A stretch of DNA of 64,000 nucleotides. Origin: a virus. The stretch is taken from positions 1-64,000 of IMG/VR virus record IMGVR_UViG_3300036985_006490; one strand, given 5' to 3'. Below, in pieces: positions 9,602-10,397 of the stretch; positions within the stretch are counted from its first letter, which is position 1, and each line of letters begins with the position of its first letter. The notes under the pieces were generated by a model, which saw nothing but the letters and a program-made list of their open reading frames with translations, was not told the DNA's origin and did no database searches. The position numbers and the translations under genes were made by a program.

Positions 9602-9900
9602 AAAAAAAAGGAGATACCGTCGTACCTCCCAATTTTCTCCGTCGAGAAAATATAACGTGTCTTTTTGGATTGGGCTGATCACATAACCCCAAGGATGGAT
9701 GCTCCTTTGTTTTATTTATCGTCTCAAAACATCCAATAGTGACGTGTTTAATTCTATCTTTTTTCAAGGTCAAAGATACCGGAAACAACAACTTCTAACC
9801 TCCCATACCTGATTCTACGTTTTTCTAATTTATAAAGCGGAGAAGAAATTGTTAAGGTGAGTATGGGAAAACACCATGATAAAATATTCCGCTATCCATT
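9602..9900 (-). ncRNA. Candidate structured RNA downstream of the tRNA, ending in a terminator
   Basis: Several complementary stems including a crossing pair; two GACG-loop hairpins followed by a T-run on the minus strand. Confidence 0.4.
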
Positions 9901-9993
9901 TGGTGGCCGGGAGTGGGTTCGAACCACTGGCTCATCGGAGTTCACCCGACTGCTCTACCATGAATTCCGAAGAACTCCTGAGCTACCACAACC
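9901..9993 (-). tRNA. Atypical tRNA-Phe(GAA)-like gene with an extra D-loop hairpin; CCA encoded
   Basis: GGTTGTGG-TA-GCTC...GAGC-A-GTCGG-GTGAACT-CCGAT-GAGCC-AGTGG-TTCGAAC-CCACT-CCCGGCC-A-CCA. Confidence 0.75.
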
Positions 9994-10045
9994 ATATTGT
10001 TTCTCGGGGTTTGGAACCGAATATCTATTAGTCCCAAACCCTTTA

Positions 10046-10077
10046 CAAATATAGAAAATTCTTTTTGAACTGTCAAA
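10046..10077 (-). promoter_or_regulatory. Bacteroidota housekeeping-sigma promoter (-33 TTTG / -7 TAnnTTTG) upstream of the tRNA
   Basis: TTTG-N20-TATATTTG on the minus strand. Confidence 0.8.
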
Positions 10078-10262: not shown

Positions 10263-10397
10263 ATGGCAAAAGGCACAAAAGGAGGATCATCTCCATCTCG
10301 TAAAATCTCTTTCGGAAAGAAAAAATCAGGAGTTGCTAAGAAAGGTTTTTCCAAATACGATCAGAAACCTAAAAAATACCAAGGTCAGGGAAGGTAA
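10263..10397 (+). CDS. Small Lys/Gly-rich basic protein (44 aa) ending YQGQGR
   Basis: MAKGTKGGSSPSRKISFGKKKSGVAKKGFSKYDQKPKKYQGQGR; TATTTAT upstream; below the ORF-track size cutoff. Confidence 0.75.
   Translation: MAKGTKGGSSPSRKISFGKKKSGVAKKGFSKYDQKPKKYQGQGR

What the first reader, a model, noticed from the sequence alone, without database searches (positions are those of the whole stretch)
9901..9993. tRNA-Phe-like gene with a cUUCGg hairpin inserted in the D-loop and a non-canonical anticodon loop
Seen: intact D-stem, T-arm and CCA, but the D-loop contains GAGTTC-TTCG-GAATTC (6-bp stem, UUCG tetraloop). The acceptor stem has two U-G pairs and a bulged U. The anticodon loop is GTGAACT (G32, C37), whereas tRNAs normally have pyrimidine 32 and purine 37. 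It keeps a full host-type promoter and a leader hairpin, which argues against simple decay. Inference: a nuclease-resistant tRNA, a decoy for anticodon nucleases or synthetases, or a processing handle for the downstream RNA.
Basis: partly seen in the sequence, partly recalled or inferred. Interest (0 to 1): 0.72.

Follow-up and report, generated by a model that had tools for sequence, protein, structure and literature searches.

The report
Five-armed tRNA-Phe look-alike of phages
A giant freshwater phage encodes a phenylalanine-tRNA-shaped RNA with an extra, evolutionarily maintained hairpin in its D-loop; it belongs to an apparently undescribed family found in dozens of uncultured phages, always in or near clusters of other structured RNA genes, so it is a selected tRNA variant or mimic and not a broken gene.

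Summary
On the minus strand, 9993..9901 encodes a 93-nt tRNA-Phe-like RNA. It has an intact tRNA core, a 6-bp cUUCGg hairpin inserted after G15, a bulged acceptor stem, the loop GUGAACU (G32, C37), A73 and an encoded CCA.

It is not a pseudogene. I found 34 distinct relatives in 62 uncultured viral contigs. All have a D-loop hairpin at the same site (26 different stems, with compensatory changes), GAA in the anticodon loop and A73. A search that ignored the D-arm found no relative with a normal D-loop. Several phages also carry a canonical tRNA-Phe.

In sister phages the "leader hairpin", the tRNA-like gene and a ~290-nt downstream RNA are three separate genes with their own promoters and terminators. 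In the window's group they are fused into one unit, so tRNA processing must release the neighbours. RNA-library contigs from three studies match the downstream RNA. A distant subgroup sits between Y-RNA-like modules, next to GOLLD RNA.

Most likely function: a tRNA-Phe mimic that is processed like a tRNA, is probably recognised by PheRS and decodes poorly, used in a host-phage conflict over tRNA. The function is inferred, not shown. I found no published description. This scan noted a similar RNA before in another phage (e1-3899572).

The parts
10046..10077 (-). Promoter of the fused RNA unit
   Evidence: It matches TTGACA-17-TATATT at 11 of 12 positions and TTTG-N20-TATATTTG. It is conserved in group A.
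10007..10041 (-). Leader hairpin (GGGUUUGG ... CCAAACCC). It is homologous to a separate small hairpin-RNA gene in sister phages, and in this window its conserved loop carries a 10-nt deletion.
   Evidence: Alignment A2. Sister groups show the same hairpin with its own promoter and compensatory stem changes.
9901..9993 (-). Five-armed tRNA-Phe-like RNA, 93 nt, with encoded CCA at 9903..9901
   Evidence: Sequence reading. Rfam tRNA 21.1 bits. Family model R1 106.1 bits.
9962..9977 (-). Extra hairpin inserted in the D-loop after G15: GAGUUC-UUCG-GAAUUC
   Evidence: All six pairs show changes on both sides across relatives, and 88.7% of cells are paired. There are 26 distinct stems among 34 sequences. 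Shuffle control.
9939..9945 (-). Anticodon loop GUGAACU (G32, U33, G34 A35 A36, C37, U38)
   Evidence: GAA is present in 34 of 34 relatives. Positions 32, 37 and 38 vary even within the 92%-identical group A.
9605..9899 (-). Co-transcribed ~290-nt structured RNA. It starts AUGGAUAGCGG three bases after the CCA and has two consecutive hairpins with CGACGG loops, the second being the terminator (9630..9609).
   Evidence: Consensus fold with 41 pairs, 13 of them compensatory. It has its own promoter in sister groups. RNA-library contigs cover 9641/9657/9659 to 9890/9892 in three studies. Terminator scan.

Best explanation
This is a functional, selected gene for a tRNA-Phe-derived RNA with a fifth arm.

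Proposed mechanism in this phage:
1. One promoter drives a single transcript: leader hairpin, tRNA-like body, ~290-nt RNA, terminator.
2. Host tRNA-processing enzymes recognise the intact acceptor/T-arm/elbow. RNase P cuts at G1, and a cut or trimming at the encoded CCA follows. This releases the tRNA-like RNA and also defines the ends of its two neighbours.
3. The mature RNA keeps the elements that PheRS uses (G34 A35 A36 and A73), so it is probably bound, and perhaps charged, by the host PheRS.
4. Its loop (G32, C37; 6-9-nt or mismatched loops in relatives) and the extra D-loop helix at the elbow make it a poor or non-standard ribosomal decoder.

I therefore read it as a tRNA-Phe mimic used in a host-phage conflict over tRNA. 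It would act either as a decoy for, or a cleavage-resistant stand-in against, a tRNA-Phe-directed host nuclease.

Shown: the structure, the family, selection, the gene organisation, and presence of the downstream RNA in RNA libraries.
Inferred: processing by RNase P, recognition by PheRS, and the decoy or resistance role.
For: - Family: 34 distinct sequences in 62 viral contigs. All have a hairpin at the same D-loop site (26 different stems), GAA in the anticodon loop and A73.
- Covariation: all six hairpin pairs change on both sides. Shuffle control 5.39 bp against 3.83 bp.
- Purifying selection: flanking genes are 76-86% identical among group A. Of the tRNA-like gene's 14 differences from L016, 7 are in the hairpin, 3 at loop positions 32/37/38, 1 at T-loop position 59, and 3 are G-U to A-U stem changes.
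- It is an extra copy. A canonical tRNA-Phe(GAA) co-exists in L014, L020, L038, L048 and the complete genome G005. In the two complete jumbo genomes the gene lies 25-41 kb from the ordinary tRNA array.
- It has its own promoter and terminator in sister groups.
- The same D-arm sequence occurs in canonical tRNA-Gly and tRNA-Lys, yet only GAA-type genes carry the insert.
- Canonical tRNA-Phe genes are the best-scoring ordinary tRNAs against the family model.
- The idea that phage tRNAs carry anticodon-loop changes to escape host anticodon nucleases is published (PMC10264068; see also PMC11464382 and PMC11555353).
Against: - No nuclease, synthetase or other partner was identified. No protein neighbour is shared across subgroups.
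- Expression of the tRNA-like part rests on one RNA-library contig, which could be DNA carry-over.
- For the window copy, the nearest-neighbour energy model prefers an alternative fold by 5.2 kcal/mol. That pairing is possible in only 3 of 34 relatives.
- Some relatives (group E, L016) keep a canonical CUGAAAA or UUGAAAC loop and could be ordinary decoders.
- A73 is common among bacterial tRNAs, so its invariance is weak evidence for PheRS recognition.
- The D-arm itself was fixed by my first search pattern, so its invariance in that set is by construction.
Confidence: 0.42

Rival explanations
1. It is a genuine translational tRNA-Phe. The extra arm is tolerated on the ribosome and serves only to make the phage's own tRNA-Phe insensitive to a host nuclease, or to a phage enzyme that destroys host tRNA.
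For: - The tRNA core, GAA, A73 and CCA are all complete.
- Members in groups E and I lie inside ordinary tRNA arrays, and some have canonical loops such as CUGAAAA or UUGAAAC.
- The closest complete genome, G001, has 12 tRNAs but no other tRNA-Phe.
Against: - The window has G32 and C37. Most relatives have 6-, 8- or 9-nt loops, a 31-39 mismatch or a 4-bp stem.
- Positions 32, 37 and 38 vary freely among near-identical phages.
- Five lineages keep a canonical tRNA-Phe as well.
- From established tRNA-ribosome structures, a helix at the elbow would be expected to clash with ribosomal elbow contacts. This is inference, not a test.
Confidence: 0.2
2. Its main job is architectural. It is a tRNA-shaped module in a multi-RNA locus. 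It would act either as punctuation that lets RNase P and 3' processing enzymes cut neighbouring RNAs free, or as a partner or cargo of the neighbouring large RNAs (the ~290-nt RNA here; GOLLD and Y-RNA-like modules in group D).
For: - It is fused to both neighbours in group A, with 3 nt between the CCA and the next RNA.
- In group D it directly abuts YrlA-like modules and lies about 1 kb from GOLLD RNA at 285-299 bits.
- The trio is conserved in 27-28 of 34 lineage contigs.
- RNA-library contigs of the downstream RNA begin just after the CCA.
- The literature notes tRNAs beside or inside GOLLD (bioRxiv 10.1101/2024.12.08.627333).
Against: - In 23 of 28 scored lineage contigs each RNA has its own promoter and terminator, so processing is not needed there.
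- Any tRNA could serve as punctuation. This idea does not explain the invariant GAA or the maintained extra arm.
- Groups E and I lack these neighbours.
Confidence: 0.2
3. The hairpin is a mini-intron that is removed to give a normal tRNA-Phe.
For: - Removing the 16 nt would leave an ordinary 8-nt D-loop, AGAUGGUA.
- Archaeal tRNAs with D-loop introns were recovered by the same pattern in cellular genomes.
Against: - There is no bulge-helix-bulge motif. It is a plain 4-7-bp hairpin with variable loops.
- No bacterial or phage enzyme is known to excise such an insert (established knowledge).
- Removal would not repair G32/C37 or the odd loops of relatives.
- No joint was seen in RNA contigs, though cover there was thin.
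Confidence: 0.05
4. It is a decaying pseudogene, or a neutral insertion of a small hairpin element.
For: Standard tRNA finders reject it, and its anticodon loop is non-canonical.
Against: - There is compensatory evolution in 26 distinct stems, and the scaffold is conserved above the level of flanking genes.
- Promoters and terminators are maintained.
- No lineage member lacks the insert.
Confidence: 0.02

Closest known systems
Canonical bacterial/phage tRNA-Phe(GAA) (Rfam RF00005)
   Same: It shares the acceptor/T-arm, D-stem, G18G19, T-loop UUCGAAC, a GUGCC/GAGCC-type variable loop, the GAA anticodon, A73 and CCA. Canonical tRNA-Phe genes are the best ordinary hits to the family model at 65-70 bits.
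   Different: The D-loop is 24 nt and contains a 6-bp helix. The acceptor has a bulge. The loop has G32 and C37. The window copy scores below the Rfam threshold (21.1 against 29 bits). In several phages it co-exists with a normal tRNA-Phe.
Phage tRNAs with anticodon-loop changes proposed or shown to escape tRNA-targeting defences (van den Berg 2023, PMC10264068; T5 tRNA-Lys against PARIS, PMC11464382; tRNA-Tyr against retron effectors, PMC11555353)
   Same: It is a phage-encoded tRNA variant that keeps the anticodon but varies in the flanking loop positions.
   Different: Those are otherwise normal cloverleaf tRNAs that still decode. None has an added arm. No cognate defence nuclease is known here.
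YrlA / bacterial Y-RNA-like tRNA mimics (Rfam RF02553)
   Same: They are non-decoding RNAs built from tRNA D- and T-arms and are found in phages. Sub-threshold YrlA-like modules directly flank group D members of this family.
   Different: YrlA is circularly permuted, with its ends in the anticodon stem and a capped acceptor, and it lacks an anticodon loop. This RNA has normal tRNA topology with a 3' CCA.
Archaeal tRNAs with non-canonical introns in the D-loop
   Same: They carry extra sequence at a similar place in the D-loop and were recovered by the same DNA pattern.
   Different: Those inserts carry bulge-helix-bulge splice motifs, occur in many isoacceptors and are removed by the archaeal splicing endonuclease. 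Here there is a plain hairpin, only in GAA-type genes, in phages with bacterial-type promoters.
tRNAs beside or inside GOLLD/ROOL RNA loci of phages
   Same: The family lives in phage islands of structured RNAs. Group D members lie about 1 kb from GOLLD.
   Different: The literature describes ordinary or pseudo tRNAs there. I found no mention of a D-loop hairpin. The window's lineage has a different, unnamed ~290-nt RNA in place of GOLLD.

Membership tests
tRNA (RF00005), isotype Phe | Score at or above the curated gathering threshold, or detection by a tRNA finder | tested here: not met
   The window copy scores 21.1 bits against 29, and ARAGORN at default settings makes no call. Group D and I relatives do pass at 36-45 bits.
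tRNA (RF00005), isotype Phe | Acceptor (7 bp) plus T-arm (5 bp, loop UUCRANY), D-stem, G18G19 and the tertiary-contact nucleotides | tested here: met
   Read from the sequence. The acceptor has one bulged base, which is conserved as U or A in the lineage.
tRNA (RF00005), isotype Phe | D-loop of about 4-11 unpaired nucleotides (range from PMC7609411) | tested here: not met
   The D-loop is 24 nt and includes a 6-bp helix with a UUCG loop.
tRNA (RF00005), isotype Phe | 7-nt anticodon loop with pyrimidine 32, U33 and purine 37 | tested here: not met
   The loop is GUGAACU: U33 and GAA are present, but positions 32 and 37 are G and C. Relatives have 6-9-nt loops.
tRNA (RF00005), isotype Phe | PheRS identity elements G34, A35, A36 and A73 | tested here: met
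   Present in the window and in 34 of 34 relatives. Actual charging cannot be tested here.
tRNA (RF00005), isotype Phe | Aminoacylation and decoding on the ribosome | not testable with these tools
   This needs biochemistry.
Intron-containing tRNA (archaeal BHB type) | Bulge-helix-bulge motif at the exon-intron junctions | tested here: not met
   The inserts are plain hairpins of 4-7 bp without flanking 3-nt bulges.
Intron-containing tRNA (archaeal BHB type) | A spliced form present in RNA | tested here: inconclusive
   No joints were seen, but only one RNA contig reaches the tRNA-like body and it stops at the edge of the hairpin.
YrlA / Y-RNA-like (RF02553) | Permuted tRNA-like module with its ends in a long Ro-binding stem | tested here: not met
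   There is no Rfam hit in the window, and the topology is that of a normal tRNA. TROVE/Ro60 is absent from 12 carrier contigs.
Anti-defence phage tRNA (decoy or cleavage-resistant substitute) | Protects the phage against a defined tRNA-targeting nuclease | not testable with these tools
   Only indirect evidence exists: invariant GAA with variable 32/37/38.

The most novel reading that the evidence does not exclude
The fifth arm defines a new class of tRNA-derived RNA. The RNA would be processed, and perhaps charged with phenylalanine, like a tRNA, but be kept off the ribosome. It would work together with the structured RNAs it is always clustered with (the ~290-nt RNA with twin CGACGG hairpins here; GOLLD and Y-RNA-like modules elsewhere), for example as cargo, adaptor or building block of a phage RNA-based assembly. 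The frequent UUC/UUU at the start of the hairpin loop is complementary to the RNA's own GAA and would allow head-to-tail contacts.
Probability: 0.12. Interest if true: 0.9.

Novelty: new variant of a known kind. Interest (0 to 1): 0.72.

Why it matters
- tRNA architecture is among the most conserved in biology. A maintained extra helix in the D-loop, restricted to a Phe-type tRNA and spread over several lineages of large uncultured phages, is not in the reviews of non-canonical tRNAs that I could search.
- It offers a tractable handle on two open questions: what phage-encoded tRNA variants do beyond codon supply, and why GOLLD-type and other large phage RNAs are always found next to tRNA-like genes.
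- On the practical side, tRNA finders either miss these genes or mislabel them as tRNA-Pro, -Thr, -Gln or -SeC of about 92 nt. This pollutes phage tRNA and genetic-code inferences.

Tried and rejected
- GenBank phages: blastn with the window, group D and group E members found no match, so no cultured carrier is known.
- Rfam: no family matches the tRNA-like gene, the leader hairpin or the ~290-nt RNA. The two Phe_leader hits are only terminators.
- Cellular genomes: the same D-arm pattern gave archaeal intron-bearing tRNAs, Patescibacteria tRNA duplications and coding chance hits, and no family member.
- Enzyme partners in this record (49% complete): L/F-transferase, PheRS alpha, CCA-adding enzyme and RtcB were absent.
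- Enzyme partners in 12 large carrier contigs: TROVE, RtcB and L/F-transferase were absent. A CCA-adding enzyme was present in 5 of 12, but not in the two complete genomes of the window's lineage.
- No protein neighbour is shared by all subgroups.
- A very permissive ARAGORN run gave 284 mostly spurious calls and was discarded.
- Thermodynamic folding alone is uninformative, with z-scores from -0.3 to -1.8.
- RNA-library cover of the promoter/leader region and of the 5' third of the tRNA-like gene was nil in the four runs laid. This proves nothing.
- PHROGs and Pfam gave almost no annotation for the neighbouring ORFs, so the host is inferred only from promoter style, habitat and a Bacteroidales-type SRP RNA in one distant carrier.
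- Literature searches for a D-loop hairpin or insertion in tRNAs found nothing relevant.

Full report
**Observation.** The element lies on the minus strand at 9993..9901.
- a 7-bp acceptor stem with two U-G pairs and a bulged U;
- the D-stem GCUC/GAGC;
- a D-loop that reads A14 G15, then GAGUUC-UUCG-GAAUUC (9977..9962), then AUGGUA;
- the anticodon stem GUCGG/CCGAU with loop GUGAACU (G32, U33, GAA, C37);
- the variable loop GAGCC, a canonical T-arm, A73 and an encoded CCA.

All nucleotides used for the classical tertiary contacts of the L-shape are present. ARAGORN does not call it. Rfam's tRNA model aligns it at 21.1 bits, below the threshold of 29, with 22 nt in place of a 5-nt D-loop segment. 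The window belongs to an IMG/VR virus record of 162.8 kb rated 49% complete. Its close relatives are ~320-kb jumbo phages.

**A family, not a one-off.**
- Scanning IMG/VR for GTAGCTCAG, 10-34 nt, TGGTAGAGCA gave 58 loci. About 45 of them are complete tRNA-like bodies whose inserts form hairpins of different sequence.
- That scan fixes the D-arm, so I repeated it with only the T-arm and 3' acceptor of the window's lineage. This gave 40 loci. Every lineage member again has a D-loop hairpin, including new 7-bp stems, and a GAA loop. None has a normal D-loop.
- Together there are 34 distinct sequences from 62 contigs and 26 distinct stems. A73 and GAA are each present in 34 of 34.
- On a model-based alignment all six hairpin pairs change on both sides, for example AU x10, CG x9 and GC x4 at the closing pair.
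- In an alignment-free control, the mean longest stem is 5.39 bp against 3.83 +/- 0.16 in shuffled inserts, with 0 of 2000 shuffles as high.
- The same D-arm sequence is used by canonical tRNA-Gly and tRNA-Lys in these phages, yet only GAA-type genes carry the insert.
- Canonical tRNA-Phe genes are the best ordinary hits to the family model. The family therefore descends from tRNA-Phe.

**Selection.**
- Among group A phages (the window, L002/L003, L016, L032) the flanking protein genes are 76-86% identical at the DNA level.
- The tRNA-like gene differs from L016 at 14 positions: 7 in the hairpin, 3 at loop positions 32/37/38, 1 at T-loop position 59, and 3 stem changes that turn G-U into A-U.
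- This pattern indicates purifying selection on structure with free or diversifying change next to an invariant anticodon. It is not decay.

**Gene organisation.**
- In sister groups B, C, F and G there are three separate units, each with a TTTG...TAnnTTTG promoter:
  1. a small hairpin RNA with a conserved loop (ACUUACAGGYGAUGAAAGAUACUCGG) and compensatory stem changes;
  2. the tRNA-like gene, with a terminator directly after its 3' end;
  3. a ~300-nt RNA beginning AUGGAYAGCGG and ending in two hairpins with CGACGG loops.
- In group A the internal promoters and terminators are gone. One promoter (10077..10046) and one terminator (9630..9609) frame all three, and only 3 nt separate the CCA from the next RNA.
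- The window's leader hairpin is the homologue of unit 1, but it has lost 10 nt of the conserved loop.
- The trio is found in 27-28 of 34 lineage contigs with enough flank. It is fused only in the 5 group A contigs.
- Group A is also the only group in this lineage with an encoded CCA. The phage's own tRNA-Met lacks one.

**Expression.**
- The stretch occurs in freshwater, lake and sediment metagenomes of 15 studies, and partly in six metatranscriptomes.
- I laid four RNA libraries on it. Contigs of 230-251 nt from three studies cover 9641/9657/9659 to 9890/9892. That is the downstream RNA from just after the CCA to just before the terminator.
- One 264-nt contig (depth 46) bridges the downstream RNA and the tRNA-like body up to the 3' edge of the hairpin. 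It carries L016/L032-type substitutions.
- These are contigs from relatives, so they show presence in RNA libraries and not transcript ends. DNA carry-over cannot be excluded. No joints were seen.

**Wider context.**
- In L014, L020, L038 and L048 the gene sits in or beside arrays of about 12-24 tRNAs that also contain a normal tRNA-Phe(GAA).
- In two complete jumbo genomes there is one copy each, 25-41 kb from the ordinary tRNA array. G005 also has a canonical tRNA-Phe, while G001, the closest to the window, does not.
- In group D the gene is flanked on both sides by circularly permuted tRNA modules that hit Rfam YrlA below threshold (31-40 bits). It lies about 1 kb from GOLLD RNA (285-299 bits against a threshold of 150). 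One locus also has a tmRNA, and L048 has a near-threshold Bacteroidales-type SRP RNA.
- GOLLD and ROOL are known to lie near phage tRNA islands and sometimes to contain tRNAs (bioRxiv 10.1101/2024.12.08.627333; PMC6582537). I found no mention of a D-loop hairpin.

**What it is not.**
- It is not a pseudogene, for the reasons above.
- It is not an archaeal-type intron. It is a plain hairpin without bulge-helix-bulge, occurs only in GAA-type genes, and removal would not repair the loop.
- It is not a Y-RNA-like module, because its topology is that of a normal tRNA.
- It is not a standard tRNA by Rfam or ARAGORN criteria.

**Mechanism.**
- What is invariant is the tRNA scaffold needed for RNase P and 3' processing, together with G34 A35 A36 and A73, the main PheRS identity set (established knowledge of tRNA-Phe identity).
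- What is free is the geometry of the anticodon loop.
- What is added is a helix at D-loop positions 16/17, at the outer corner of the L.
- I infer an RNA that is processed like a tRNA, is probably recognised by PheRS and decodes poorly. Its most likely role is as a decoy, or a cleavage-resistant stand-in, in a conflict over tRNA-Phe, in line with published ideas on phage tRNAs (PMC10264068, PMC11464382, PMC11555353).
- In group A it additionally acts as punctuation for its two neighbours.
- No partner enzyme was found.

**Caveats.**
- For the window copy the energy model prefers an alternative fold by 5.2 kcal/mol, in which GGAGUUC of the insert pairs with GAACUCC of the anticodon arm. This pairing is possible in only 3 of 34 relatives.
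- The host is unknown. Promoter style, habitat and the SRP hit point to Bacteroidota.
- No cultured phage carries the gene.
I treated it as a lead and tested the family independently.

Noticed in passing
window 9605-9899 (-): A ~290-nt structured RNA follows the tRNA-like gene. It has conserved motifs, 13 compensatory pairs and two consecutive hairpins with invariant CGACGG loops (UCUCGACGGAGA and the terminator). It has its own promoter in sister phages and matches no Rfam family. RNA-library contigs from three studies match it end to end.
   Followed up: partly
window 10007-10041 (-); L008 3137-3200 (-), L013 1787-1850 (-): The leader hairpin is homologous to an independent small RNA gene in sister phages. 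That RNA has a conserved loop, ACUUACAGGYGAUGAAAGAUACUCGG, which contains a box-C-like GUGAUGA and may be a k-turn. The window copy has a 10-nt deletion in this loop.
   Followed up: partly
L005 1477-1884 (-), L024 3644-4051 (+), L041 3574-3981 (+); L005 2951-3052 (-), L041 2758-2857 (+), L010 4495-4593 (+): GOLLD RNA (285-299 bits) lies about 1 kb from group D hairpin-tRNAs. Sub-threshold YrlA-like permuted tRNA modules abut those genes on both sides. Together they form a dense island of tRNA-derived and ornate RNAs.
   Followed up: partly
L010 2100-2193 and 3696-3783 (+); L020 6985-7075 (+): A further kind of odd ~90-nt tRNA-like gene has the acceptor AGUCAGG/CCUGACU. The L010 2100-2193 member carries two T-arm-like elements. 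ARAGORN calls them tRNA-Pro or gives an undetermined type.
   Followed up: no
L048 4091-4196 (-); L041 4972-5367 (-); L045 9465-9859 (-): These large phages encode a near-threshold Bacteroidales-type small SRP RNA (52.1 bits against 55.2) and tmRNA genes.
   Followed up: no
family-wide; window 9968-9971: 21 of the 34 distinct hairpin loops begin with UUC or UUU (UUCG, UUUA, UUCA). These are the two Phe codons and are complementary to the RNA's own GAA. In the window this complementarity extends to 7 bp and gives the alternative MFE fold. It is not conserved in L016 or L032 (loops CUUA and CUCG).
   Followed up: partly
window 58808-58880 (-), promoter-like site 58967-58998 (-): The only standard tRNA in the 162.8-kb record is a tRNA-Met with a C1-A72 mismatch, which is initiator-like, and no encoded CCA. 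A TTTG-N20-TAnnTTTG motif lies about 90 nt upstream.
   Followed up: no
window 10263-10397 (+): A 44-aa, very basic ORF (MAKGTKGGSSPSRK...) is transcribed divergently from the RNA unit. It is conserved at 80-83% DNA identity in the relatives compared (L003, L016, L032) and has no family match.
   Followed up: no
L002, L005, L006, L015 and others: ARAGORN at default settings mislabels many family members as ~92-nt tRNA-Pro(tgg), tRNA-Thr(ggt), tRNA-Gln(ctg) or tRNA-SeC(tca). Such calls in phage annotations may hide more members.
   Followed up: partly
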